Made by a program: the position numbers and the translations under genes. Below are positions 1,685 to 29,637 of a DNA stretch of 64,000 nucleotides, in pieces. The DNA comes from an uncultured Clostridia bacterium (lineage in GTDB: Bacteria > Bacillota > Clostridia > Oscillospirales > CAG-272). The DNA is taken from NCBI GenBank assembly GCA_947588825.1, contig CANPZU010000008.1:1031-65030 (forward strand). Direction: 5' to 3'. The number at the start of each line of letters is the position of its first letter. Within the stretch, counting starts at the first letter, position 1. Under the pieces are notes generated by a model. That model searched no databases. It worked only from the letters and a program-made list of their open reading frames with translations, and was not told the origin of the DNA.

Positions 1685-1777
1685 GAACGGGCGTCAAGAA
1701 AAAAAGGCGGCGTTTTTTGTCTTAACATTGCCGATTAACATTTTTGCGGCGTCTAAACGCAGCTGAAAGCGGTATGC

Positions 1778-1853
1778 GCTGGAGTGGCACAGCCGGTAGC
1801 GCAGCTGATTCGTAATCAGCAGGTCGTGGGTTCGAATCCCATCTCCAGCTCCA
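1778..1853 (+). tRNA. tRNA-Thr, anticodon CGT
   Basis: 76-nt cloverleaf folded by hand. Acceptor GCTGGAG/CTCCAGC, anticodon stem GCTGA/TCAGC with loop TTCGTAA, T-arm GTGGG-TTCGAAT-CCCAT, encoded CCA end. Confidence 0.9.
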
Positions 1854-1858
1854 AGAAA

Positions 1859-1900
1859 GAAACCTCTTTTGCCTAAAAAGGTAAGAGAGGTTTCTTCATT
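1859..1900 (+). terminator. intrinsic terminator-like hairpin after tRNA-Thr
   Basis: GAAACCTCT (1859-1867) pairs with AGAGGTTTC (1886-1894). Inner pairs extend the stem to about 15 bp. A T-rich tail follows. Confidence 0.6.
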
Positions 1901-1958
1901 AACTTAAAATAACTTAAAATCAACTTAAAATTAACTTAAAATTTACTTAAACTTAAAC
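1899..1958. repeat. 10-11 bp tandem repeat AACTTAAAAT x about 5
   Basis: Reads ...TTAACTTAAAAT AACTTAAAAT CAACTTAAAAT TAACTTAAAAT TTACTTAAA CTTAAAC directly in sequence. Confidence 0.85.
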
Positions 1959-2148
1959 TGAGCAAAACGCCCACTTTTTGGATGAATAGCGCCGTGCTTT
2001 ACGGTTGATTTTACAAGCGAGCAAAATTATAACGAAAATATGTACAAAACAACTATTGAAAAACGAATTGATTTGTGGTAAAATAAACATACATGCCATT
2101 ATGCAGAAAAAGGCAACATAATGAACATAGTTTTGAAAGGATACCGCC

Positions 2149-4209
2149 ATGAAAAAGATAATTATCACCATGATTTTTCTTGCGCTTGCGCTTTTTACGC
2201 TGCTGCTTGTCGGATGCGGCACCGAGGAAAAGGACAAGGTGAGTCAAACTACGACGACCGACTTTGACCGATCGCACGAGAAACCGAACACGACCATACC
2301 CGATCTTGAATTCCAAGAGGATCTTGAGACCACGGAAGAGAAAATCCCCGGAAAAGAATCGCAGACCGTGGTCGAGCCCGGTTACTCGGCGACGACGACT
2401 GAAGAGGGCTGGAGCGTTAACACGGGCATCGATTACAGTGTGTACAACTTCACGGGCAGCGGTGTGGCGCTTGCCGAGGATATTGAAGAAAAGTATAAGG
2501 GTCTGACCGTCAACTACTACATATACGGTAAGGATGAAAACGGCGAGCCGACGCGCACCAAAAAGACCGCGACTCAGATACAGAAGATGAGCAATATCCT
2601 TGCTTTTTACAGCGAGGACAAAGAAAAAAGAGCGATCAACATATACATCCAGGAATTAAATCTGCGAATCGTTCCCGAGTATACGTCGATTGAAGGCAAG
2701 TCGGGGTATTTCATGACCGTGTCCTTCAACACGAACATCGCTTCAACGTTTAAAGCCAACATATCGGCGGTTAACGGAGCCGTGACCGGTGATGTCGAGC
2801 ACGCGGGGATAGTGTCTTCGGGCAAGGACGGTACGTTTGTAGGCACTATCAAGCTGACGATTCCCTTTGTTCCCGAAGGCGACTATTATGTTAACATATG
2901 CTCCGACGGTGGAGAGTTTTTAAAGTCAATACCGATCAAGATAAGTGCGGGCGAGTTTAACGACCGCAAATATCACCTGCTTTACACGGGTGACTGGGAC
3001 CTTATAACCGACCCGGCGTATCAGGCAAACCTCACCGATCTCTTTTATAACACCTATTCAAGGCTTTATGCAAGATGGGGCAACGGTTCCGAGCCCACGA
3101 CGATAACCTTCACGGCCGATCCCGCTTATGACGGCGTGGCATATGCTATGGGCACTCAGGTGGTCGTCTCGGTAGATTACGCCAACGCAAACCCCAATGA
3201 TCTCGGCTTCTTCTCGCATGAGATAACTCACTCTGTGCAGCAGTACAACGGATTTTCAAGCACATGGTGGGTTGAAAACATGGCAAACTACGGCGGATTC
3301 AGATATTTCCACTGGTCAAACAAAAAGTATGTGCAGGTATATAAGGCGAGCGATACGTCTCTTCAGGACTGGGGCTATGAGCCTTACGGAAACAACAAGT
3401 GGTTCTTTGCATATATGGACGCTAAGTATCCCACAACAATGAACGAGGACGGCACATACAATTACGGACTTATCGATACGCTCAATCGCAAAATAAAGAG
3501 CGGTGCGATAAAGAGCGACGCTCTCACCGATGCCGGTTTTAACGGCGTGTTCAAGGATATCACCGGCTTTGAAACATACGAGGAGCTGCGTCTGCATTAT
3601 GTGGATGAACTGAAATCGGGCACATGGGCGTTTGTAGGATTCGGAGAGTATATTGACAATTATCTCACCGAAGGACTTGACGACGTACCCGATCCCGATT
3701 ATCCCATGATAGTTGAGCCCTCGCACGGCGATCATACCGCCAAAGCGCTTGACTCGGTTGTAAAAACCGGCGATAACCTGTGCACAAGCGCAACCATATA
3801 CGACTCTGCGGGACAGGTGAACTCCGCTGAAAGCGCCGACAAGCTTATTGACGGCAACGCTTCGACAAAGTGGTGCTGCAGCGGCGCGTCAAACGCGGCT
3901 TACTGCCTTGACGGCACGCAGTTTTGGACTATAATCGACCTTGGCGCCGAAAAGACCTTCAATACGTATACGCTTTTCAACACAAGGACGAAGGAGAACT
4001 TCGGCAACATGTCCGAGTGGGAGATACTCATTTCAAACGACGCCGAAAACTGGACGTCCGTCGATTATCAAAAGAGAACTCCCGCAAACGAGGTTTCCTA
4101 CAATATAGGCGAGCAGAGCGCGAGATATATTCTCATAAGAGTTTATAACGGCGACGGAAGCTACGGTACTATAAGACTGTATGAGTTCCAGCTTTATGAT
4201 GTAGATTAA
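2149..4209 (+). CDS. secreted lipoprotein: BSP-like (HExxH) metallopeptidase domain plus C-terminal F5/8 type C (discoidin/CBM32-like) domain
   Basis: Lipobox signal MKKIIITMIFLALALFTLLLVGC. Has FFSHEITHSVQQ (HExxH). C-terminus LIDGNASTKWC...WTIIDLG...IRLYEFQLY is typical of discoidin domains. RBS AAAGGA. Confidence 0.75.
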   Translation: MKKIIITMIFLALALFTLLLVGCGTEEKDKVSQTTTTDFDRSHEKPNTTIPDLEFQEDLETTEEKIPGKESQTVVEPGYSATTTEEGWSVNTGIDYSVYNFTGSGVALAEDIEEKYKGLTVNYYIYGKDENGEPTRTKKTATQIQKMSNILAFYSEDKEKRAINIYIQELNLRIVPEYTSIEGKSGYFMTVSFNTNIASTFKANISAVNGAVTGDVEHAGIVSSGKDGTFVGTIKLTIPFVPEGDYYVNICSDGGEFLKSIPIKISAGEFNDRKYHLLYTGDWDLITDPAYQANLTDLFYNTYSRLYARWGNGSEPTTITFTADPAYDGVAYAMGTQVVVSVDYANANPNDLGFFSHEITHSVQQYNGFSSTWWVENMANYGGFRYFHWSNKKYVQVYKASDTSLQDWGYEPYGNNKWFFAYMDAKYPTTMNEDGTYNYGLIDTLNRKIKSGAIKSDALTDAGFNGVFKDITGFETYEELRLHYVDELKSGTWAFVGFGEYIDNYLTEGLDDVPDPDYPMIVEPSHGDHTAKALDSVVKTGDNLCTSATIYDSAGQVNSAESADKLIDGNASTKWCCSGASNAAYCLDGTQFWTIIDLGAEKTFNTYTLFNTRTKENFGNMSEWEILISNDAENWTSVDYQKRTPANEVSYNIGEQSARYILIRVYNGDGSYGTIRLYEFQLYDVD

Positions 4210-19104: not shown

Positions 19105-19217
19105 GTTTTTATTTTGTCGTACATTTAATGTTAATGAGAATTTCACAACATATTAAGAAATATGCGAAAAAAATAAGATATAATGAAAAAAACACAAAGG
19201 ACGGGAGAAATAATAAT

Positions 19218-20123
19218 ATGAAATTAAGATCACTTGCCGCACTCATGCTTGCTTTTGTTCTCTGCTTTTGCCTTGCCGCCTGTAAGGTGGTCGATAATTC
19301 CGACGGTACGTCAAATAATTCTTCCAGCAACCAAGGAAACACGGACATGGACGGCCCTGCTGCAAAGGGCGAGGTGAAATACAAATTTCTAAAGGTCGGC
19401 AAATCCCCTTGTACAATAATACGCACTCAAAACAGCACCGTAATTATCGACGCCGCCTCGGAAGATCAGGGCGGGGATATCGTGACATATCTTAATGAAA
19501 AGGCTGTAACAACTGTCGACTATCTTATAGTCACCAACTTTTCAAAAACTTGTATCGGCGGAGTTCCGACTCTTCTTCAAGCCGCCGGGATTACGGTAAA
19601 AAACATTTATGAGCCTTCCTATGCCAAGGACAGCAGCGCTTATACGTCGTATAAGAATGCTTTGGCTGCCGTAGGCATCACTCCAATCAAAATAGCGGGA
19701 GACACAAGTATCACGGTCGACGATTTGCAAATCAAGTTTTTGCCTCCGCTGAAGGATTATTCGTCCGCGCTCGACGAAAATGACGAGGGCAATTCCGTGG
19801 CACTTTCAATTTCACACGGAAACGCGAGATTTCTTTATACAAGCCGCGTCGCCGGGGACAGAGTCACAGAACTCATCTCGCAGATAGGCGACACCAAGTA
19901 CGATTTCATCACGGTTCCCAACTACGGAAGATACGATGCCAAATACGAAACGCTCTTTAACGCGATCTCGGCCAAGAACGCGGTCATATTCGCCTCAGCC
20001 AAAAATCCCCCCGAAACAAGCATGATACAACTGCTTGACAACGCGAATATAAAATACTATGTCACGCGCGACGGCGGAGTTGAGGCAAGCTCCGACGGAA
20101 CGGCATTTACAATAAAACAGTAA
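19218..20123 (+). CDS. lipoprotein with ComEC-type MBL fold but without the metal-binding motifs
   Basis: Lipobox MKLRSLAALMLAFVLCFCLAAC at the internal ATG at 19218 (GGGAGA RBS). Block order matches MBL lipoproteins, but DYLIVTNFSKTCIGG replaces the THxHxDHxGG block and VPNYGRYD replaces the GHHGS block. Confidence 0.6.
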   Translation: MKLRSLAALMLAFVLCFCLAACKVVDNSDGTSNNSSSNQGNTDMDGPAAKGEVKYKFLKVGKSPCTIIRTQNSTVIIDAASEDQGGDIVTYLNEKAVTTVDYLIVTNFSKTCIGGVPTLLQAAGITVKNIYEPSYAKDSSAYTSYKNALAAVGITPIKIAGDTSITVDDLQIKFLPPLKDYSSALDENDEGNSVALSISHGNARFLYTSRVAGDRVTELISQIGDTKYDFITVPNYGRYDAKYETLFNAISAKNAVIFASAKNPPETSMIQLLDNANIKYYVTRDGGVEASSDGTAFTIKQ

Positions 20124-21189: not shown

Positions 21190-21218
21190 TTGATTTCATT
21201 CGTGTTTTCGAGTATAAT
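21190..21218 (+). promoter_or_regulatory. sigma-A type promoter of the HTH/R-M operon
   Basis: TTGATT (21190-21195), 17-nt spacer, TATAAT (21213-21218). Confidence 0.65.
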
Positions 21219-21467: not shown

Positions 21468-22295
21468 ATGCCAAAGAAGAAAACTTGGATGGTTATACTG
21501 CTTATAGTTGTTGTGGCCGTTTTAACTATCGGGGTTCCTTTTGCCATAAATGAGGCCTACAAAGTTGACAAGGGATATGTAACCATGTGGGGCGCCGAAG
21601 ATGTACTAAGTTATTATGGCGCAATTCTTGGGGCAACTGCAACTGTTGCTGCCCTTGCCTTTACTATATGGTTTACCAAGAGACAAATCCAGCGGGACGC
21701 TTATTTGAAAAATGAGACTGATAAATGGAGACAGGTTGAATCCACCATTGGAAGCATCTTAAACGAAATAAATCCGATAATCATGTTGAAACGAGGTATG
21801 GATACTGAATTTATGGATCCCGGCTATGCCATGAACCAGTTTTCAAAATACAGCATGGATTGTCGGCTTACAACCGATCAGTTAATGACGCGTGTTAATA
21901 CTTTTGATTTTAAAATGATTTCCGAATTAGTTAAGCGGATACAAGAAGTTGCAGACAAGCTCTTTCAACTTAGTCAAAAGGAAATAGATCAACATAACAA
22001 GCGGCTGCAATTACAACAAAGAGAGAATGCGCGGAAATTGCTTGCAATAGAGCAGCAATATCCCGGCTCACTCCCCGCCTCTGAAATTGCGAGGCATCAG
22101 GAAACAATAAAGATGACAGATGGTATTTGTTTAGAAGAAATAACCGATTCTATAAACGAAATCAACAAAGAATTCTGGAACATATATGATACGGAGTTCA
22201 GGCCGCTATTGCAACTTAAAGGGACGACTTTTGAATCTATCTATATGCAAATTCAGGCAAATGCAGATGCTATATTGTCGTTTTGGAGGAAATAA
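21468..22295 (+). CDS. unknown protein: two N-terminal TM helices plus about 190-aa helical/coiled-coil cytoplasmic domain
   Basis: Hydrophobic segments WMVILLIVVVAVLTIGVPFAI and YYGAILGATATVAALAFTIWF. The rest is charged and helical (KRLQLQQRENARKLLAIEQQ). AAAGGAA RBS. AT-rich. The stop lies 2 nt before the mod start. Confidence 0.7.
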   Translation: MPKKKTWMVILLIVVVAVLTIGVPFAINEAYKVDKGYVTMWGAEDVLSYYGAILGATATVAALAFTIWFTKRQIQRDAYLKNETDKWRQVESTIGSILNEINPIIMLKRGMDTEFMDPGYAMNQFSKYSMDCRLTTDQLMTRVNTFDFKMISELVKRIQEVADKLFQLSQKEIDQHNKRLQLQQRENARKLLAIEQQYPGSLPASEIARHQETIKMTDGICLEEITDSINEINKEFWNIYDTEFRPLLQLKGTTFESIYMQIQANADAILSFWRK

Positions 22296-22297
22296 CT

Positions 22298-23890
22298 ATG
22301 CCCACCCTTGAATGGATCGGAAAAGATAAAGTGATCAATCACCACCAAGAGGTGCCCTATCGGGTGCTGGAGCGGCGGTACAGCTTTGATGCGAACGGGC
22401 AGCATGATGCCGACAACGGCAGCGAGAACATGATCATCCGGGGCGACAATCTGGAAGCGCTGAAGGCGCTGCTGCCCCGGTACGAGGGACGGGTCAAGTG
22501 CATCTACATAGATCCGCCGTACAACACGGGAAACGAAGGCTGGGTCTACAACGACAACGTGAACGACCCGAAGATCAAAAAGTGGCTCGGCGAAGTTGTC
22601 GGCAAAGAGGGCGAGGACTTGACCCGCCACGACAAGTGGCTGTGCATGATGTACCCACGGCTCAAGCTGCTGCAAAAACTGTTGGCGGACGATGGGGCTA
22701 TATTCATTAGTATTGATAATTCCGAACTATTTGAATTAAAATTGATATGTGACGAGGTGTTCGGTGCAAGAAACTATGTTGATACAATATCATGGTTTAA
22801 GAAAGCCTCGCCGTCAAATGATGCCCAGTTTTTTAGTAATGATATTGAATACATAATTGTGTATGCAAAACAGAAAGATGTTTGGCATCCATCTCGACTG
22901 ACATTATCGGAGAAGCAATTAAAATATTATCAAAACCCCGATAATGATCCCCGCGGACCTTGGAACTCTGCAACGTATACTTGCAACAAATCTAAGGACG
23001 AACGACCAAATTTATATTATCCAATAGTTAACCCTCATACTGGGACAGAAGTATTTCCGAAAATCACCGCAGTTTGGAAATATTCAAGGGAACAGACAGA
23101 GAGGTTTCAAAAAGATAATCGGATTTTTTGGGGAGTAGATGGAACAGCAAAATTCCCCCGCTTCAAAAAGTATTTGTCAGAACATGAGGGTGTTGTCAAT
23201 CGCACATTATGGCATTATGATGATGTAAATCATACTCAGGGGGCTTCCAATGAATTAAAACTTATTGGAATTAATGGATTTGCGACGCCGAAACCCACAA
23301 AATTAATTGAACGCATTATAAAAATTGCGGCTTCATCCGATTCTATTGTACTCGACTCCTTCGCCGGTTCCGGCACCACCGCCCATGCCGTTCTTAACAT
23401 GAACAAGGCCGACGGCGGCAACCGTAAGTTTATTCTCGTCGAGATGATGGACTACGCCGATTCCATCACCGCCGAGAGGGTTAAGCGCGTCATTCAGGGC
23501 TACGGAGAGGGCAAAAACGCCGTTGAGGGTACAGGGGGCGATTTCAGCTTTTACGACCTCGGCGAGCCGCTTTTGATCGGAGAAAACCTCAACGAAGCCG
23601 TGGGGACGGAGAAAATACGGGAGTATGTGTGGTTCATGGAGACAAAGTCTCCCTACGCTCCTGCCGAATGCGATAACCCCTATTGCCTCGGACGCCATAA
23701 CGACACCAGCTACTATTTCTACTACGAGCCGGAACGGATCACCGTTCTTGACTATGCGTTCCTCTCCGGCGTCACGGAGAGATCCGGCGGAACCGTTATC
23801 TACGCCGACCGCTGCGCCCTCGGCGAGGACAAGCTCGCGCAGATGGGGATCGTGTTCAAAAAGATACCCCGCGACATCAGCAGACTGTAA
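22298..23890 (+). CDS. mod: Type III restriction-modification methyltransferase (Mod, beta-class N6A/N4C MTase)
   Basis: Motif IV IYIDPPYNTGNEGW precedes motif I VLDSFAGSGTTAHAV, which is the beta-class order. HDKWLCMMYPRLKLL is present. A central variable region lies between the motifs. GGAGG RBS before the ATG at 22298. Confidence 0.9.
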   Translation: MPTLEWIGKDKVINHHQEVPYRVLERRYSFDANGQHDADNGSENMIIRGDNLEALKALLPRYEGRVKCIYIDPPYNTGNEGWVYNDNVNDPKIKKWLGEVVGKEGEDLTRHDKWLCMMYPRLKLLQKLLADDGAIFISIDNSELFELKLICDEVFGARNYVDTISWFKKASPSNDAQFFSNDIEYIIVYAKQKDVWHPSRLTLSEKQLKYYQNPDNDPRGPWNSATYTCNKSKDERPNLYYPIVNPHTGTEVFPKITAVWKYSREQTERFQKDNRIFWGVDGTAKFPRFKKYLSEHEGVVNRTLWHYDDVNHTQGASNELKLIGINGFATPKPTKLIERIIKIAASSDSIVLDSFAGSGTTAHAVLNMNKADGGNRKFILVEMMDYADSITAERVKRVIQGYGEGKNAVEGTGGDFSFYDLGEPLLIGENLNEAVGTEKIREYVWFMETKSPYAPAECDNPYCLGRHNDTSYYFYYEPERITVLDYAFLSGVTERSGGTVIYADRCALGEDKLAQMGIVFKKIPRDISRL

Positions 23891-23905
23891 AGGAGGCGGC
23901 GCATC

Positions 23906-26518
23906 ATGGAAATGAAAACCTATCAGAAAAAAGTGATTGCCGACCTCGTCCGCTATCTGGAACTGCTGAACGAGGTGCGTGACAGCGGCGTTGCGTTCTA
24001 CCACTTCTGGCATGAAAAGAGCGCACCATCTCTCGGCATCTATCAGGACATCCTGCCGGGTGTGCCGAATCTGTGCTTCAAAGTTCCCACGGGCGGCGGA
24101 AAGACGTTCATCGCCTGCAATTCCGTGCGTCCGATTTTCGACGCGCTGCCCGTCACAAAGACGAAAGCCGTCGTGTGGCTGGTGCCGTCCGATGCGATCC
24201 TCACGCAGACCGTTAAGGCACTGAAAGACGTCCGCCACCCGTACCGGCAGAAGATCGACGTGGATTTCGGCGGGCGTGTTGAGGTCTATACGAAAGAGGA
24301 ACTTCTGAACGGGCAGAATTTCAATCCCACCGCCGTCACTGAGCAACTTTCGATTATGGTGCTGTCTTACGACTCGTTCCGTGGGCGCGGCAAAGAGGGA
24401 CTGAAAGCCTATCAGGAGAACAGCAATCTCGCTAACTTTGCGAAGGTGCTGGGAAAGCCGGAAAATCCCATTGAGAAAGCGGACGAGTCCGCGCTGTTTC
24501 AGATCATCAATCAGTTGTCGCCCCTCGTGATAGTGGACGAGAGCCACCACGCACGGTCTGAGTTGAGTATCGAGATGCTGGCGAATTTCAATCCCTGCTT
24601 TGTGCTGGATTTGACTGCCACGCCGAAAAAAGAAAGCAATATTATCTCTTATGTGGACGCTGTGCAGCTCAAGAACGAGAACATGGTGAAGCTGCCTGTT
24701 ATCGTCTATAACCGGGACAGTCAGACGGAGGTTCTGACCGACGCCATCGACCTGCGGAACAAGTTAGAGGAAATCGCCGTCGCAGAACAGAAAAAGACAG
24801 GACGGTACATCCGCCCCATTGCATTGTTTCAGGCTCAGCCAAAGGGCAAAGAGGATGCGACGACATTTGAAAAACTCCGTGAAAAGCTGGTTGACGCCGG
24901 AATCCCTGCGGAGCAGATCGCTATCCGCACCGCCGATGTGAACGAACTGAAAAATATTGATTTGATGTCGCCAAACTGTCAGGTGCGGTACATCATCACC
25001 GTCAATGCCCTCAAAGAGGGCTGGGACTGCCCGTTTGCCTACATATTGGCGTCCCTTGCCAACAAGACGAGCCAAGTGGACGTGGAGCAGATTCTGGGAC
25101 GTATCCTCCGGCTGCCGCACACTGTTCAGCACAGCCAGACAGCGTTGAACATGTCCTATGTACTGACATCCTCCAATGATTTTGACGAGACGGTTCGCCG
25201 CATAATCCGTGGGCTCAACAGCGCCGGATTCAGCGATAAGGACTACCGTCTGTCCGCGCCGGTCGCCCCGAAGCCGGTCGTTTCCCACGAGCCGGAGCAG
25301 CTTGAACCACAACGGATGGAAACGCCTGATGAGGATAATTTCGACGGCGTAGACGGCGAGGCGATCGGGAAAGAGCTGGAGCGGCGCCGTGCGCAGAGCG
25401 ATACCGCCGAAGCGCCTCAAAAGGCGACGGATATGTTGAAAGACGCGGTAAAAGCGGGGCAGGACTACGACAAAGCGCGTAATGGTGCGGAGAATGATCC
25501 CTACACAAATGTCCTCCCGTGGGAGGTGCGTGAAAAGGTGACGACTTTCTATGTCCATCCGCAGTTCCGAAAAGACGTGGAGAACCTGATAATTCCGCAA
25601 TTTTTCCAAGTGGTGCCGGAGTCTCTTTTTACGGAAGGAACGCTGGAGCTATTGGAAAAGGAACAGCTTGCGGAGGGCTTTACGCTGAAGGGCAAGGCAT
25701 ACGATATTGACTTCGTTTCTGCGGACGATGAGATCGCCAAGGTCGATGTCCGGCAAAGCGAAGGCGGTTTGCCAAAGGTGTTCAAGATGTCCAGCGCCGA
25801 CCAGCGGTACTTCAAGGAGTATTTCAACAGCCTGCCGCCGGAAAGCCGTGTGCGTCAGTGCAAGGATATGATGTTCTCTCAGCTCAACAAAATGAACACG
25901 GTGGACGCCGCCGAGTTGAGGGCCTATATTGATCTGATTTTTGGATCGATGGACAAGGCTCAGCTTGCCGCCATGGAGAAAGCGCCGCTCGGCTATGCCG
26001 CAAAGATCAAGGCAAAGATTGAATCACTGCTGACAGAACATTACAAGGAAACCTTTGCCCGCTGGCTGGAGACGGAACGCATCGTCTGCCGTCCGTCGTA
26101 CCGTCTGCCCGTGTGCATCCATCCGATGGACAATACGGACATGATCGGCAGGTCGCTCTATCAGGCAGAAGAAGATATGAATCAGCTTGAGCAGGACTTG
26201 GTGATGGAGCTGACCGCCCTGCCCAACGTCCGTTGGTGGCATCGGAACATTGCGAAGCACGGCTTCTGTATAAACGGCTTTATCAATCACTACCCGGACA
26301 TTATGCTGATGACAAACAGCGGGAAGGTCATTTTTGTCGAGACAAAAGGCGAGCATCTGAAAAACGATGACAGCCGCGATAAAATCGCCCTTGGTCAGGC
26401 ATGGCGCAATGCGGCGGGCAGTCAGTTCAGGTATTACATGGTGTTCGCCGACGATGTTGAGCCTCTGCCGGGAGCGGTGGGGATGAAGCAGTTTGCGGAG
26501 ATCGTGAAAGAACTGTAA
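23906..26518 (+). CDS. res: Type III restriction enzyme Res subunit (SF2 helicase plus C-terminal PD-(D/E)xK-like nuclease)
   Basis: Walker A FKVPTGGGKTFIA. DEAH-type box LVIVDESHHA. Helicase C region ITVNALKEGWDCPFAYIL...QILGRILR. C-terminal VIFVETKGEHL. AAGGAGG RBS. Confidence 0.9.
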   Translation: MEMKTYQKKVIADLVRYLELLNEVRDSGVAFYHFWHEKSAPSLGIYQDILPGVPNLCFKVPTGGGKTFIACNSVRPIFDALPVTKTKAVVWLVPSDAILTQTVKALKDVRHPYRQKIDVDFGGRVEVYTKEELLNGQNFNPTAVTEQLSIMVLSYDSFRGRGKEGLKAYQENSNLANFAKVLGKPENPIEKADESALFQIINQLSPLVIVDESHHARSELSIEMLANFNPCFVLDLTATPKKESNIISYVDAVQLKNENMVKLPVIVYNRDSQTEVLTDAIDLRNKLEEIAVAEQKKTGRYIRPIALFQAQPKGKEDATTFEKLREKLVDAGIPAEQIAIRTADVNELKNIDLMSPNCQVRYIITVNALKEGWDCPFAYILASLANKTSQVDVEQILGRILRLPHTVQHSQTALNMSYVLTSSNDFDETVRRIIRGLNSAGFSDKDYRLSAPVAPKPVVSHEPEQLEPQRMETPDEDNFDGVDGEAIGKELERRRAQSDTAEAPQKATDMLKDAVKAGQDYDKARNGAENDPYTNVLPWEVREKVTTFYVHPQFRKDVENLIIPQFFQVVPESLFTEGTLELLEKEQLAEGFTLKGKAYDIDFVSADDEIAKVDVRQSEGGLPKVFKMSSADQRYFKEYFNSLPPESRVRQCKDMMFSQLNKMNTVDAAELRAYIDLIFGSMDKAQLAAMEKAPLGYAAKIKAKIESLLTEHYKETFARWLETERIVCRPSYRLPVCIHPMDNTDMIGRSLYQAEEDMNQLEQDLVMELTALPNVRWWHRNIAKHGFCINGFINHYPDIMLMTNSGKVIFVETKGEHLKNDDSRDKIALGQAWRNAAGSQFRYYMVFADDVEPLPGAVGMKQFAEIVKEL

Positions 26519-26542
26519 AACGCGAATATAGGAGGGGTTAAA

Positions 26543-27007
26543 TTGAAACAGTTTTTATATCTTGATACAGATATCGTTAATTCCATAATTGCGCAAGAAG
26601 AAAAAGGACTTGTTCAAGATTTTTCAAAAGACGATCAAAAAAATAAGACAAAAAGTACACATATTGAAGTTGGAGGGGAAGGTTTCGGTAAAGCGGAAGG
26701 TTCTCTCTTCAAACTGGCTAAGGCCGAGGCAAACCTCACTTTGTCGGTAGGCATAGAAAAAGATTATTCATCTGGCACGACAACACATGAAATTATCTCA
26801 AAAGTCCTACATGACGCAGCATTTGATGTAGCATACGAGTACATTCGCTCATGTAATTTTAAGTTGGGAAAAAGCAACTCAGATGACTATGGAGATTATG
26901 TAGAAATAAAGCGCGTATTTGACTTTGTGGATTTTGCTTATCTTGAGAATTTGTTTTCAAAAGGCGGATTGATAGAATATCAAAAAGTTATCGCGGGAAG
27001 AAATTGA
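26543..27007 (+). CDS. unknown protein (probable 5' half of a gene split by a frameshift)
   Basis: TTG start 5-6 nt after a strong AGGAGGGG RBS. MKQFLYLDTDIVNSIIAQEEKGLVQDF... AT-rich. The stop at 27005-27007 comes just after an A5 run (26982-26986). Confidence 0.6.
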   Translation: MKQFLYLDTDIVNSIIAQEEKGLVQDFSKDDQKNKTKSTHIEVGGEGFGKAEGSLFKLAKAEANLTLSVGIEKDYSSGTTTHEIISKVLHDAAFDVAYEYIRSCNFKLGKSNSDDYGDYVEIKRVFDFVDFAYLENLFSKGGLIEYQKVIAGRN

Positions 27008-27035
27008 GATAAGACTTGGTCAGGCAACGGAAAAA

Positions 27036-27443
27036 ATGAACCGCGATCAGTTACGTAACTCAGAAAAGCAGATTAAAGCAGAAATGAAAAAAATTGTTGA
27101 AACAAGCGACAAACAATATGACGATGTTCATGATATTATTGCTGCGTTTCGACAATTAGTGCCGTATACACGTATGCTAATTTCTCATGATGGGTATCTC
27201 ATTCCTTTGGATGATAAATATTTTAGAGTAAATCCAGAAAGTCTTGGTTTTAGATATGGTGGAGAAATAACGTGTGTTGGAATGATAACAAATATAATCG
27301 GTGCAGACACAAATCCAAACGATCCTAAAAATATATTTGCAACTTTACAGTTTACTGTGAATGAAGCCCTAAGAAAAATCTTGCCAACGGCAGAAGAAAA
27401 TCTGTGTGTTATTCATCCTATTGCTGTATTTTACGGGGATTAA
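27036..27443 (+). CDS. unknown protein (probable 3' half of the same split gene)
   Basis: No convincing SD before the ATG at 27036. Its frame is already open from 26976, overlapping the end of the previous ORF in the +1 frame. Confidence 0.5.
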   Translation: MNRDQLRNSEKQIKAEMKKIVETSDKQYDDVHDIIAAFRQLVPYTRMLISHDGYLIPLDDKYFRVNPESLGFRYGGEITCVGMITNIIGADTNPNDPKNIFATLQFTVNEALRKILPTAEENLCVIHPIAVFYGD

Positions 27444-27460
27444 ATCTTCAGAGAAAAACA

Positions 27461-27495
27461 GCCATACTCAGTCAATAAACCGAGTGTGGCCGTTT
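27461..27495 (+). terminator. intrinsic terminator closing the R-M operon
   Basis: GCCATACTC / GAGTGTGGC stem (27461-27490, one G-U pair) followed by CGTTTTATTT. Confidence 0.7.
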
Positions 27496-27656
27496 TATTT
27501 GTTGCACCCCTGTTTGGCAGCTGCTCTTTGTTAGTATAGTTTTGATACTGCTTTATTGAAAGCTGCCTCGGGGCGGCAATCTTTATAATTTTTTAAGATA
27601 ATTTTTGAAGAGGAAAAAAGCAAAGAATATTTTTTAGTGTACGGCAGAGAGTAAAA

Positions 27657-28442
27657 TCACTCTTGGAGGTCTTTTGAATTATCATCGTTTCCCGAAGAGT
27701 CCTTAATAGAAGGTTGTGCATTCTCTTGGGATGGAACTTCTTCCCCGGCGTCGTCAAGAAGGCTGAGAAGAAAGTCGTTGTCCGAAAAGGAGAGAGTGTT
27801 GTATATATTTTTCTCCGCGTAGCCCTTGCAGATTTTATGCCGGCGCATAATGGCGTCGATTATATTCTTTTGAGTTCTTCCGTTCATTATTGGAGCGCTG
27901 CAGAGATTTTGGCAGAAGGGAATGAGCATGTCGCCAGTCATAACATTGTCAGAATAAAGCTCGTCATAGCTTGCATGATCGTCGGAGAGCAGGACTATGT
28001 TGTATATGTTTTGCGAAGGTATGCCCGCCTTCATAAGTATATCGTCGATCTCGGCGGTATAGCGCTTTCCGATCTTTGCGAAGTTTGGGATTTCTTCGGT
28101 GACGCCGTTGTTTGTGACTGTCCAGCTTTCCTCGGGCAAGGTGACGAAAAACCCCTTTTTATCGACTACCGTGATAACGACGACGCCGCCCTTAAGAACT
28201 GCCACAACATCGGCTTTGGGAGGAATATTGTTATCTCCGGCCTTTAGAAGGTATACGCTTCGAAGGACCGCTTTTTTATAGTAAAGCTTCATCAGCGAGT
28301 AAGCGAACCGATAATCGCGCGCGCTGTCTGCGTAAATTGCAAAAAGGCGGGAAAGCTTTCGTATGGCAAAAAACATATATGTAACGGTTGCCGCGGCGAT
28401 GAGCGCGCAGCAAATCAAAAACACTACAGTGGCCGTTTGCAT
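27657..28442 (-). CDS. membrane-anchored NERD-like (nuclease-related domain) protein
   Basis: N-terminal TM helix TATVVFLICCALIAAATVTYMFFAI. ADVVAVLKGGVVVITVVDKKGFF...W...NFAKIGKRYTAEIDDIL follows the NERD pattern (D-x-V...G-V-x-V-I-E/D-x-K). ATG at 28442 with a GAAAGGA RBS is preferred over 28460. Confidence 0.5.
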   Translation of the reverse strand: MQTATVVFLICCALIAAATVTYMFFAIRKLSRLFAIYADSARDYRFAYSLMKLYYKKAVLRSVYLLKAGDNNIPPKADVVAVLKGGVVVITVVDKKGFFVTLPEESWTVTNNGVTEEIPNFAKIGKRYTAEIDDILMKAGIPSQNIYNIVLLSDDHASYDELYSDNVMTGDMLIPFCQNLCSAPIMNGRTQKNIIDAIMRRHKICKGYAEKNIYNTLSFSDNDFLLSLLDDAGEEVPSQENAQPSIKDSSGNDDNSKDLQE

Positions 28443-28574
28443 GAATAAACATCCTTTCAAAACGCGTCATATTTGCCAAGCGGCAGACACACCCGCGTTT
28501 ATTATATTATAAAATAAATTTTCGATTTTGTCAATCGGTTTGTAAATAATGCGACAAAATGTGTGTAAATGTGA

Positions 28575-28644: not shown

Positions 28645-29637
28645 ATGGATCCCGAACAAAAAAGCACAAGGGCAAATAAAAATAAAGAGACAAAAAAGAA
28701 GATATTGATTTTTTTCATCATACTTGTGGCGGCAATCGTCATTCTCCCGATAATAAACATGATCGATTTTGATGCGATCCTGCAAAAAGACGAGGACGAA
28801 AAAGAACCCGAGGTCACCACTGTGACTCTCGGACGTCATCACTTTACAGAGCCCGATTATGAAGAGGACATCATGCAGGATGAGAGATACCTTGAAAAAA
28901 ACAGACGCCTTTATTACACTTATGAAAACGAGACCTTTGAAATAAACGGCGACGCCGCGTCTCACGGATCGATTTGCGTTTTTCTTGACGAGTATTTCAG
29001 CGCGGTTATTTCCGGCGACTGCGACAAGTACAACTCTATGTTTACAGACGAGTATATTGAAAAATACGGGGAAAAAAGCTTTACTCGGCAAAAGCTGTAT
29101 AATATAAATGCGGAATGTCTGCGTTCGGAGTATCTTGCAAACGGAGACGCAAACGGAAAGTATAAGGGTTACTATGTATACTTTTTTGAAGTGACATATA
29201 ACATACTTGACAATAACGGTACGTTCAGAAACGATTTTTTAGGCGATGAGGGTGTCAGTCCGGTCATTTTTGAGATAATCGACGGAAACAACGAGATAAA
29301 GATAAGCGGCATAAGCGTTTACTCAAGCGGCAGCGAAGCGCCGACTCCCACAAACCCGGGCGCGATATTTGCGATAATTTTTGCCGTTCTTCTTTTACTG
29401 TTTCTTCTTTTTGAGGTGATTACAAGGCGCTGCGTTTCCATTTGTTTTGCTTTAGGCTGCGTCGTGGGCGCGATTTTGTCCATTATTAGGCGTCCTATCG
29501 GAACGGCGATCGTTTCTTCATTGCTTGTCGCTCTTTGTCTACTGCTGCTCAGATTTACGGTTTTAAAAAAATTTATAAAAAAATACACGCACTCTGCGAA
29601 AAAACAAAGTAATTCTGTTAATATAAATAGAACATAA
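28645..29637 (+). CDS. hypothetical membrane protein (N-terminal TM, extracytoplasmic domain, C-terminal TM helices)
   Basis: Hydrophobic segments ILIFFIILVAAIVILPII and, at the C-terminus, AIFAIIFAVLLLLFLLF and IVSSLLVALCLLLL. GAGGAAA RBS. Confidence 0.6.
   Translation: MDPEQKSTRANKNKETKKKILIFFIILVAAIVILPIINMIDFDAILQKDEDEKEPEVTTVTLGRHHFTEPDYEEDIMQDERYLEKNRRLYYTYENETFEINGDAASHGSICVFLDEYFSAVISGDCDKYNSMFTDEYIEKYGEKSFTRQKLYNINAECLRSEYLANGDANGKYKGYYVYFFEVTYNILDNNGTFRNDFLGDEGVSPVIFEIIDGNNEIKISGISVYSSGSEAPTPTNPGAIFAIIFAVLLLLFLLFEVITRRCVSICFALGCVVGAILSIIRRPIGTAIVSSLLVALCLLLLRFTVLKKFIKKYTHSAKKQSNSVNINRT

What the first reader, a model, noticed from the sequence alone, without database searches (positions are those of the whole stretch)
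26543..27443. Two AT-rich ORFs after res look like one ~298-aa gene split by a 1-nt change in an A5 run
ORF1 has a strong SD (AGGAGGGG) and a TTG start. ORF2 has no convincing SD. The ORF2 frame is already open from 26976 and is the +1 frame of ORF1. Removing one A from AAAAA (26982-26986) joins them into ...GGLIEYQKLSREEIEIRLGQATEKMNRDQLRNSEKQIK..., a smooth hydrophilic linker. The locus is therefore one of three things: a recently inactivated gene, a homopolymer sequencing error, or a slippage-controlled gene. The N-terminus (FLYLDTDIVNSIIAQ) and the rest match nothing I can name confidently. Its position as the last gene of the R-M operon makes it a candidate accessory defence component.
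Basis: partly seen in the sequence, partly recalled or inferred. Interest (0 to 1): 0.65.

Follow-up and report, generated by a model that had tools for sequence, protein, structure and literature searches.

The report
Frameshifted DolA-like gene behind a restriction operon
The two small ORFs are the halves of one 300-residue DUF6414 (DolA-like) gene, broken by a real 2-bp deletion; intact relatives are single promoter-less genes that sit at the tail of restriction-modification operons of many types, so this copy is most likely a recently dead accessory defence gene.

Summary
ORF1 (26543-27007) and ORF2 (27036-27443) are adjacent, and ORF2 lies in the +1 frame, open from 26976. Joined, they match Pfam DUF6414 end to end (E 4.9e-26). 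Hundreds of homologues are single ORFs of about 300 aa.

The proposed lesion is wrong. The closest intact allele (94% nt identity) shows a 2-bp deletion, ATATAT to ATAT, at 26977-26980. The A5 run is unchanged. The true repair reads ...EYIKKLSREE... (300 aa) and restores an invariant KK.

The split allele is identical in 7 contigs from 5 samples, including a strain with 14 SNPs per 12.6 kb. It is therefore an inherited mutation, not a sequencing error. Nothing supports programmed slippage or phase variation.

DUF6414 is the family of DolA from the Dodola anti-phage system; I confirmed this with the published DolA sequences. This clade lacks DolB. Instead the gene is a promoter-less single-gene module at the 3' end of type I, IIG and III R-M operons. 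At least 17 of 55 loci have R-M upstream and none have it downstream. The fold has no known match.

Verdict: a recent pseudogene of an R-M-linked, DolA-like accessory defence gene. The pseudogene is ordinary. The family pattern is moderately interesting.

The parts
21190..21218 (+). Candidate operon promoter (TTGATT-17-TATAAT), about 250 nt upstream of the first gene
   Evidence: Consensus scan, 10 of 12 matches. A pattern match only, not shown to be functional.
21468..22295 (+). orf275, the first gene of the cassette. It has two N-terminal transmembrane helices and a coiled-coil tail, and belongs to no known family.
   Evidence: Translation. No Pfam, PADLOC, NCBIfam or PHROGs hit. A 280-aa counterpart sits upstream of mod in the P0026 lineage, 61% identical over the 33 C-terminal residues that were available.
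22283..23890 (+). Type III R-M methyltransferase (mod), apparently intact. The gene call on contig L003 maps to a start at 22298.
   Evidence: PADLOC MTase_III at 1.7e-214 and Pfam N6_N4_Mtase at 8e-42. Full-length alignment to L062 mod at 63% identity.
23906..26518 (+). Type III R-M restriction/helicase subunit (res), apparently intact, 870 aa
   Evidence: Pfam ResIII and PADLOC REase_III at 2.3e-81. Aligns over residues 1-870 to the 868-aa Res of L010 and L062.
26530..26537 (+). Shine-Dalgarno AGGAGGGG of the DUF6414 gene, 5 nt before the TTG start
   Evidence: Read directly from the sequence. Conserved in the intact allele L001.
26543..27007 (+). ORF1, the N-terminal fragment of the DUF6414 gene. 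Residues 1-146 are homologous; 8 out-of-frame residues (QKVIAGRN) and a stop follow.
26977..26980 (+). Lesion site. ATAT is what remains of the ancestral ATATAT; loss of 2 bp shifts reading into the +1 frame.
   Evidence: DNA alignments with the intact allele L001 and five contigs carrying the split allele.
26982..26986 (+). It is unchanged relative to the intact allele and is not the lesion.
26979..27443 (+). C-terminal coding part of the DUF6414 gene in the +1 frame (residues 147-300). The first possible start codon is the ATG at 27036, residue 166 of the full protein, and it has no clear SD.
   Evidence: The last 100 residues are identical to those of the intact allele, with 5 synonymous and 0 non-synonymous differences.
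27461..27500 (+). Intrinsic terminator closing the operon: a 9-bp G+C-rich stem followed by a T tract
   Evidence: RNA fold at -21.3 kcal/mol, z = -5.3 against shuffles. Conserved in L001.

Best explanation
ORF1 and ORF2 are the two halves of a single 300-aa gene of the DUF6414 (DolA-like) family. It is the last gene of a four-gene operon, orf275-mod-res-DUF6414.

In this strain lineage a 2-bp deletion removed one AT unit from ATATAT, at 26977-26980. Reading shifts into the +1 frame and stops 8 codons later. The mutation is real and inherited, and it is recent: neither half has decayed further. The most likely result is loss of function, that is, a young pseudogene. The type III R-M genes upstream remain intact.

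Inferred, not shown: the intact protein is an accessory anti-phage component. It is a distant relative of DolA of the two-gene Dodola system. This clade has no DolB ATPase partner. It exists as a promoter-less, single-gene module carrying its own SD, recombined onto the 3' end of R-M operons of unrelated types (I, IIG MmeI-like, IIG/ISP-like, III) and transcribed with them.

My preferred mechanism, held at low confidence, is a second-line or abortive-infection-type effector, or guard, whose expression is tied to an R-M system. It may be triggered when restriction fails or is inhibited, in the way PrrC relates to EcoprrI. Frequent inactivation, in roughly 7 of 55 species-level copies, would then reflect a fitness cost.
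For: Shown:
- One gene. The repaired protein matches the full length of Pfam DUF6414. Homologues are single ORFs of about 300 aa at 99-100% coverage: 681 hits, 653 clusters at 50% identity, and at least 46 of 55 species loci intact.
- Lesion. A 2-bp deletion relative to the 94%-identical intact allele, with the A5 run unchanged. The repair restores the conserved KK without a gap.
- A real allele. Exactly the same ORF1 and ORF2 occur in 7 contigs from 5 samples. These come from two assembly sources and include a strain with 14 SNPs per 12.6 kb.
- Recent. dN/dS against the intact sister allele is 0.32 overall and 0 of 5 in the last 100 codons, and there are no further stops.
- DolA family. Both published DolA proteins match DUF6414 over their full length, at 78 and 103 bits.
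- No DolB. tblastn finds none in the 64-kb window, and none adjacent to the gene in the 55 loci.
- R-M linkage. The -1 and -2 genes include type IIG, ISP-like, type I and type III enzymes, McrBC and Vsr. Labelled contexts agree. At least 17 of 55 loci have a co-oriented R-M gene within three genes upstream, and 0 have one downstream.
- Operon position. The upstream gene is co-oriented in 49 of 52 loci, with a median gap of 49 nt.
- A discrete module. Nucleotide homology between loci with different R-M types starts 5-15 nt before the start codon and ends at the stop. For example, the gene behind MmeI and the gene behind an ISP-like enzyme are 85.5% identical over the gene only.
- Chimeric ORFs fuse truncated Res, MTase or HsdS to DUF6414.
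Against: - No experiment links this clade to phage defence. The PADLOC models, including DolA, do not detect the protein even at E up to 10.
- Direct profile-profile similarity to DolA is weak (hhalign probability 6.6%). The relationship rests on the shared Pfam model.
- The fold (AF2 pLDDT 69) has no match in the PDB or BFVD, so the biochemical activity is unknown.
- About two thirds of the loci show no R-M gene upstream with my limited BLAST seeds.
- I cannot exclude that ORF1, the N-terminal domain, or both fragments keep some activity.
- The excess of non-synonymous changes on the window's branch (8N:4S against 5N:5S) is too small to test.
Confidence: 0.72

Rival explanations
1. Sequencing or assembly error: the real genome carries an intact 300-aa gene.
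For: The lesion lies in low-complexity A/T sequence. MAG-derived relatives also show frameshifts that could be errors; L052, for example, has A9 where intact relatives have A8.
Against: The same 2-bp deletion occurs in 7 contigs from 5 samples and two assembly pipelines. One of them is a strain that differs by 14 SNPs. A 2-bp loss in (AT)3 is not a typical short-read error.
Confidence: 0.03
2. Slippage-controlled or phase-variable gene: translational +1 frameshifting, or reversible repeat-length change, switches the full-length protein on and off.
For: The KK codons create A runs at this exact site in many species, A7 to A9. One relative, L052, is frameshifted right there by an A8-to-A9 change. 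Defence genes, type III mod genes among them, are classic phase-variable loci (general knowledge).
Against: - In the window the run is only A5 and the AT repeat only 2-3 units, far below hypermutable lengths.
- The A5 run is identical in the intact allele.
- All split-allele contigs carry the same state. Every intact 300-aa variant in the 90% cluster belongs to the sister lineage, with 17-21 aa differences.
- Homologues have no conserved two-frame architecture.
- A ribosomal +1 shift inside the 26976-27007 overlap could not restore the conserved EYIKK.
Confidence: 0.04
3. Functional split: ORF1 (N-terminal domain) and ORF2 (C-terminal part) are both made and act together, or ORF1 alone keeps a function.
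For: The break falls at a domain boundary, between the N-terminal alpha/beta part and the long helical hairpin at 143-206. HMM alignments of distant members also break there. Both halves are still free of further damage.
Against: - ORF2's first ATG is residue 166, has no clear SD and lies 29 nt after ORF1's stop.
- Residues 147-165, including the conserved KK, would be lost.
- No homologue is organised as two genes. The other disrupted copies break at different places.
- The lack of decay is equally explained by a recent mutation.
Confidence: 0.08
4. The gene is not a defence effector. It is an R-M accessory factor, for example a regulator of restriction or modification activity or a factor for establishing the R-M module. 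Alternatively it is a selfish passenger gene with no role in immunity.
For: - Its position is strictly polar, at the 3' end of R-M operons of every type.
- No defence model recognises it.
- It has no recognisable nuclease, toxin or membrane domain.
- Loss of the gene leaves mod and res intact.
Against: - Nearly identical proteins (about 85% nt identity) accompany mechanistically unrelated enzymes such as MmeI, ISP-like and type III. That argues against a specific protein-protein regulatory role.
- It also follows non-R-M defence genes (AAA_21-RloB, YhcG) and integrases.
- It shares a Pfam family with DolA, part of an experimentally validated anti-phage system.
Confidence: 0.13

Closest known systems
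DolA of the Dodola anti-phage system (Millman et al. 2022; DolA plus the ClpB-like AAA+ ATPase DolB, from Bacillus cereus FM1 and B. thuringiensis)
   Same: Same Pfam family, DUF6414, matched over the full length by both. The window protein scores 92.6 bits and the two DolA proteins 78 and 103 bits. They share a similar size, a conserved N-terminal strand-helix (M-K-x-[FI]-x-Y-[LF]-D) and a Gly-rich loop with an amphipathic helix. In the Millman supplement, the Dodola locus of Anaerococcus prevotii lies three gene ids from a type III R-M system.
   Different: No DolB or AAA_2 ATPase in the window or next to the gene in 55 relatives. Not detected by any PADLOC model, including DolA. It is 40-45 residues longer, with a long helical hairpin. 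Direct profile similarity is weak. It is a single gene appended to R-M operons, not a two-gene unit. The copy in the window is frameshifted.
R-M-linked accessory genes: PrrC within the EcoprrI type Ic locus, RloC, and the rlo genes (RloB with an AAA_21 ATPase, i.e. AbiL-like) in type I loci
   Same: It is embedded in, and co-oriented with, an R-M operon. One lineage lies directly behind AAA_21-RloB. The PrrC precedent, a back-up effector held in check by its R-M partner and released when phage inhibits restriction (my own knowledge), is the model I propose by analogy.
   Different: No sequence or fold similarity to PrrC or RloC anticodon nucleases, or to any ATPase. It is always the last gene, not an internal one. 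It accompanies types I, IIG and III rather than one type. No trigger or target is known.
Phase-variable type III R-M loci (repeat tracts in mod or res genes of Haemophilus, Neisseria, Helicobacter)
   Same: A frameshift in simple-sequence DNA inside a type III R-M operon. A runs of 7-9 occur at the same codon pair in other species.
   Different: The repeat here is (AT)2-3 next to A5, too short for hypermutability. The affected gene is the accessory gene, not mod or res. Only one allele state is seen in the lineage.

Membership tests
Pfam DUF6414 (PF19952) | Full-length match to the family HMM above the gathering score (25 bits) | tested here: met
   The repaired protein scores 92.6 bits, E 4.9e-26, residues 1-296 against profile positions 1-283 of 283. 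The precomputed Pfam label on ORF1, ORF2 and every listed homologue is PF19952.
Pfam DUF6414 (PF19952) | Encoded as one uninterrupted ORF of about 260-320 aa | tested here: not met
   The window copy is split into 154-aa and 135-aa ORFs by a 2-bp deletion. At least 46 of 55 species-level relatives are intact, at 290-316 aa.
Dodola defence system | A DolA-type protein recognised by the system's own model | tested here: not met
   No PADLOC family, DolA included, hits the repaired protein at E up to 10. Relatedness shows only through the shared Pfam model and a weak N-terminal hhalign match.
Dodola defence system | An adjacent DolB (ClpB-like AAA+ ATPase) partner gene | tested here: not met
   tblastn with both published DolB proteins finds nothing in the window. 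The only significant hit in the 55 loci (L013) lies about 7 kb away on the opposite strand. No AAA_2 or Clp family appears among the families listed for the neighbouring genes.
Dodola defence system | Demonstrated protection against phage | not testable with these tools
   Needs phage challenge of a strain that expresses the intact gene.
Type III restriction-modification system (the upstream operon) | A Mod methyltransferase and a Res SF2-helicase/endonuclease subunit, adjacent and co-oriented | tested here: met
   Mod: PADLOC MTase_III at 1.7e-214. Res: ResIII and REase_III at 2.3e-81. Both are full length relative to homologues.
Programmed ribosomal frameshift gene | A two-frame architecture and shift site conserved among homologues | tested here: not met
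   Homologues are single-frame ORFs. The intact allele has the same A5 run in a single frame.
Phase-variable contingency locus | A hypermutable repeat tract, with both ON and OFF lengths present in one lineage | tested here: not met
   The tracts are only A5 and (AT)2. All 7 contigs of the lineage carry the OFF state. The intact variants belong to a lineage about 6% diverged. Read-level heterogeneity could not be examined.
R-M-linked accessory (rlo/PrrC-like) genes | Recurrent location inside or at the end of R-M operons across lineages | tested here: met
   At least 17 of 55 loci have a co-oriented R-M gene within three genes upstream, and 0 have one downstream. The contexts are type I, IIG and III.
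R-M-linked accessory (rlo/PrrC-like) genes | A recognisable effector domain (anticodon nuclease, ATPase) and activation when restriction is inhibited | tested here: not met
   No such domain by Pfam, PDB sequence search or Foldseek. Activation cannot be tested here.

The most novel reading that the evidence does not exclude
Solo DolA-like (DUF6414) genes are a previously undescribed class of promoter-less, single-gene defence modules. They plug into the 3' end of R-M operons of any type (I, IIG, III). They act as a generic back-up or guard layer, for example triggered when phage anti-restriction factors disable the R-M system or when restriction fails. They do not need the DolB ATPase of Dodola. 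The repeated frameshifts and insertions in the family, including this one, would reflect the cost of carrying such an effector.
Probability: 0.25. Interest if true: 0.6.

Novelty: new variant of a known kind. Interest (0 to 1): 0.33.

Why it matters
For this genome, the practical result is an annotation. The two hypothetical ORFs should be one DUF6414 pseudogene, with the frameshift at 26977-26980, behind an intact type III R-M system.

The family-level pattern has wider interest. A distant DolA relative lacks the Dodola ATPase and is not detected by PADLOC. It is nevertheless widespread in gut Clostridia, with 653 clusters at 50% identity. It behaves as a portable single-gene unit that attaches to the tail of unrelated R-M operons.

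If it is a defence or back-up gene, three things follow:
- It would extend Dodola-type immunity to a one-gene form.
- It would add a case of layered R-M plus abortive-infection-type defence.
- It would give a simple handle, the intact versus the naturally frameshifted allele, for testing what DUF6414 does. No mechanism for DUF6414 appears in the papers I could search.

Tried and rejected
Deleting one A from the A5 run is rejected by DNA alignment with the intact allele.
- **Searches with no hit for the repaired protein.** PADLOC gave none even at E up to 10. NCBIfam gave none. A PDB sequence search with the family profile gave only coiled-coil noise.
- **First AF2 run.** Eighteen sequences gave pLDDT 42.6, which is unusable.
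- **Attempts to deepen the alignment.** The second run, with 55 sequences, gave pLDDT 69.
- **Foldseek.** Nothing significant against the PDB or BFVD; best E values 0.86 and 0.5, TM-scores at most about 0.2.
- **Search with the most divergent relative.** The L059 protein returned only itself, so a capped search was wasted.
- **Profile search with 47 sequences.** It returned the same clade as before.
- **PADLOC scan of the neighbours of the two most divergent members (L059, L061).** No Dodola components.
- **hhalign of the family against two DolA sequences.** Weak, probability 6.6%. The link to DolA had to be made through Pfam.
- **Literature.** Only two papers in the library discuss Dodola, and neither gives a mechanism. 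The main text of the Millman preprint does not name the system; its supplement supplied the sequences.
- **Viral contigs.** Only 2 hits in 2.9 million, so this is not a typical phage gene.
- **Branch-specific relaxation of selection.** The counts are too small to decide.
Full report
**1. Observation**

ORF1 runs 26543-27007, with a TTG start, 154 aa, and the SD AGGAGGGG at 26530-26537. ORF2 runs 27036-27443, with an ATG start and 135 aa. ORF2's frame is ORF1's +1 frame and is open from 26976, after TGA TAG at 26970-26975. The segment has 35-37% GC, against 50-59% in the preceding res gene.

The pair is not a chance juxtaposition. The joined protein matches Pfam DUF6414 (PF19952) from profile position 1 to 283 of 283, at E 4.9e-26 and 92.6 bits against a gathering score of 25.

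**2. One gene, and where it is broken**

A search of 5.8 billion proteins gave 681 homologues. The best 120 are nearly all 299-309 aa and cover 99-100% of the joined query. An exhaustive HMM search of 1.84 billion cluster representatives found 653 clusters at E ≤ 1e-3. Most are 270-320 aa proteins matched in a single stretch over positions 1-299.

The closest relative, P0001, is 93% identical at protein level. It is encoded on contig L001, whose DNA is 94% identical to the window. That alignment shows what happened. L001 reads GATAGAATATATCAAAAAGTC and the window reads GATAGA--ATATCAAAAAGTT. The window has lost 2 bp, one AT unit of ATATAT, and the remnant lies at 26977-26980. The A5 run at 26982-26986 is the same in both.

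The correct repair gives ...GGLIEYIKKLSREEIE..., 300 aa. It aligns with relatives without a gap and restores a KK pair that is invariant across 18 relatives.

**3. Real mutation, error or switch?**

Exactly the same 154-aa and 135-aa products are encoded on 7 contigs from 5 samples: ENA ERZ27249206 and ERZ27059539, and Logan ERR10663675/6/7. All carry the identical deletion. Three contigs are 100% identical to the window, one is 99.97% identical, and one differs by 14 SNPs in 12.6 kb. The allele is therefore inherited within a slightly diversified strain lineage. That rules out a one-off sequencing error.

The 90%-identity cluster contains at least 11 distinct intact 300-aa variants. All belong to the sister lineage, 17-21 residues away from the window's protein. 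No intact version of the window's own lineage was found. So there is no sign of ON/OFF switching. The tracts, A5 and (AT)2-3, are too short to be hypermutable.

There is no conserved two-frame architecture in the family. A ribosomal +1 shift anywhere in the 32-nt overlap could not restore the conserved EYIKK.

dN/dS between the repaired window gene and L001 is 0.32. The last 100 codons have 5 synonymous and 0 non-synonymous differences. Neither half has acquired further stops. Polarised with outgroups, the window branch has 8 non-synonymous and 4 synonymous changes, against 5 and 5 on the sister branch. That hints at relaxed selection but the counts are far too small to test.

Conclusion: a young frameshift pseudogene. 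ORF2's first ATG corresponds to residue 166 and lacks an SD, so independent expression of the C-terminal part is unlikely but not excluded.

**4. What the gene is**

The only paper in the searchable library that mentions DUF6414 states that it is the domain of one protein of the Dodola anti-phage system. The other Dodola protein is ClpB-like (10.1101/2024.10.26.620412).

I tested this claim. The supplement of Millman et al. (10.1101/2022.05.11.491447, file 11) gives the cloned DolA and DolB sequences. Both DolA proteins match DUF6414 over their full length, at 78 and 103 bits. DolB is an AAA_2 ATPase. The window protein and DolA are therefore members of one Pfam family.

They are distant relatives. 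PADLOC's models do not detect the window protein. Direct hhalign similarity is confined to the N-terminal 70 residues, with probability 6.6%.

There is no DolB. tblastn finds no DolB homologue in the 64-kb window and none adjacent to the gene in 55 related loci.

In the papers I could search, Dodola's mechanism is not described. A study in S. thermophilus found only a minimal phenotype and no informative structural match for the non-ATPase component (PMC11514479).

**5. Structure**

An AlphaFold2 model from 55 sequences has pLDDT 69 and pTM 0.63. It shows:
- an N-terminal strand-helix, the conserved MKQFLYLDTDIVNSIIAQ;
- a disordered Gly/Ser/Lys-rich loop at residues 22-80, containing an amphipathic helix (..KLAKAEA..);
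- an alpha/beta part;
- a long helical hairpin at 143-206;
- a C-terminal beta-rich part carrying the most conserved motifs (DGYLIPLDDKYFR, GFKYGGEITCVGMITNIIG, CVIHPIAVFY).

The frameshift falls at the start of the hairpin. Foldseek found nothing significant in the PDB or BFVD, and a profile search of PDB sequences also found nothing. Two PHROGs families of unknown function match weakly, but only 2 of 2.9 million viral contigs encode a relative. The biochemical activity remains unknown.

**6. Context**

*In the window.* The gene is last in an operon: orf275 (two TM helices plus a coiled coil, no family), mod, res, then DUF6414. A strong terminator hairpin follows at 27461-27500. Mod and Res are full length.

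*The same cassette elsewhere.* It recurs in the most widespread relative, P0026. That protein is 69% identical and is listed in 588 blocks of the contig index. Its cassette has a 280-aa orf275 homologue, Mod at 63% and Res at 48% identity. An AAA_21/DUF4435 gene is inserted between mod and res.

*Other lineages.* The gene follows other systems:
- an MmeI-type IIG enzyme, with a 4-nt overlap, on a Tn916-like element (P0013);
- a type I hsdM-S-R operon (P0122);
- an ATPase and IIG-type methyltransferase pair (P0065);
- AAA_21-RloB and a YhcG fragment (P0116);
- Type ISP-like IIG enzymes (L007-L009).

*Across 55 species-representative loci* from gut and rumen Clostridia:
- The upstream gene is co-oriented in 49 of 52 loci, with a median gap of 49 nt.
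- With a small set of BLAST seeds, at least 17 loci have a co-oriented R-M gene within the three upstream genes. None has one downstream.
- HMM scans of the neighbours add type I specificity subunits, McrBC, Vsr, type IV enzymes, recombinases and integrases. No single conserved partner appears.
- Three chimeric database proteins fuse truncated Res, MTase or HsdS to a truncated DUF6414.

*Module boundaries.* Nucleotide similarity between loci with different R-M types begins 5-15 nt before the start codon and ends at the stop codon. For example, the copy behind MmeI and the copy behind an ISP-like enzyme are 85.5% identical over the gene only. The unit that moves is one gene with its SD and without a promoter.

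**7. Other broken copies**

Of the 55 loci, at least 46 are intact. About seven are damaged:
- L050, a frameshift near residue 258;
- L056, a frameshift near residue 165;
- L053, a 1.2-kb insertion at residue 230;
- L058, degenerate;
- L054 and L061, truncated;
- L052, a frameshift at the very same KK codons as the window. L052 has A9 where two intact relatives, L031 and L036, have A8.

The KK(N/K) codons form A7-A9 runs in many species. This spot is therefore a mutational weak point in the family. In the window, however, it was the adjacent AT repeat that changed. Some of the MAG frameshifts may be assembly errors.

**8. Interpretation**

*Shown:*
- one gene;
- a 2-bp deletion;
- a real, inherited and recent mutation;
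- membership of DUF6414, the DolA family;
- no DolB;
- a recurrent, polar, operonic association with R-M systems of several types;
- a discrete single-gene module;
- no known fold.

*Inferred:* the intact protein is an accessory defence component that rides on R-M operons. By analogy with PrrC/EcoprrI and other layered systems, it may act as a back-up or guard. Frequent inactivation may reflect its cost.

The window's copy is most probably non-functional. As a finding about this window it is ordinary, a pseudogene. The family-level pattern is a modestly novel variant of a known system and is worth an experiment.

Noticed in passing
window 21468-22295 (+): orf275 is the first gene of the type III cassette. 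It has two N-terminal transmembrane helices and a coiled-coil C-terminus, and no hit in Pfam, PADLOC, NCBIfam or PHROGs. A 280-aa counterpart sits upstream of mod in the P0026 lineage, 61% identical over the 33 C-terminal residues that were available. It may be a fourth, membrane-bound component of this R-M cassette.
   Followed up: partly
L062-L066, locus coordinates 1725-3338: In the most widespread relative of the cassette, a 537-aa AAA_21/DUF4435 (OLD/AbiL-like ATPase) gene is inserted between mod and res. This is a defence gene nested inside a type III R-M operon.
   Followed up: no
L052 6450-6470; also L027, L031, L036 at the equivalent codons: The conserved KK(N/K) codons form A7-A9 homopolymers in many species. 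L052 is frameshifted exactly there, with A9 where two intact relatives (L031, L036) have A8, while L027 carries an in-frame A9. This could be a mutational hot spot or a contingency site in some lineages, or the result of MAG homopolymer errors.
   Followed up: partly
L053 10684-11942: A 1.2-kb insertion interrupts the DUF6414 gene at about residue 230. It contains ORFs of 93 and 292 aa and is probably an IS element. It was not annotated.
   Followed up: no
window 22600-23200 and 26500-27500, compared with 23400-26200: GC content inside the operon is strongly mosaic. The middle of mod has 39-42% GC, res 50-59% and the DUF6414 gene 35-37%. This fits a cassette assembled from parts of different origin, with the DUF6414 module a late addition.
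   Followed up: partly
proteins P0160, P0241, P0181: These database proteins fuse a truncated N6_Mtase, a ResIII N-terminus or an HsdS domain to a truncated DUF6414. They are probably deletion or assembly chimeras of neighbouring genes. They give independent evidence that R-M genes lie directly upstream of DUF6414.
   Followed up: partly
L071 (contig ERZ27287409 k141_63210) and L063: The R-M plus DUF6414 unit sits on mobile elements. L071 has Tn916-type Xis/Int, an FtsK-like protein and a Rep protein. L063 has three serine recombinases next to the cassette. Other contigs carry the same cassette beside housekeeping genes.
   Followed up: no
window 27657-28460 (-) and 28645-29637 (+): Two ORFs, 267 aa and 330 aa, lie between the cassette and the NfeD/Band_7 pair. 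Neither has a significant match in Pfam, PADLOC, NCBIfam or PHROGs. They are conserved in the same-lineage contigs L002-L005.
   Followed up: no
window 19128-20123 (+): A metallo-beta-lactamase-fold protein. Its best NCBIfam match is the AHM subclass B3-like model at 167 bits, far below that model's 590-bit cut-off. It is a generic MBL-fold hydrolase and no evidence of a resistance gene.
   Followed up: no
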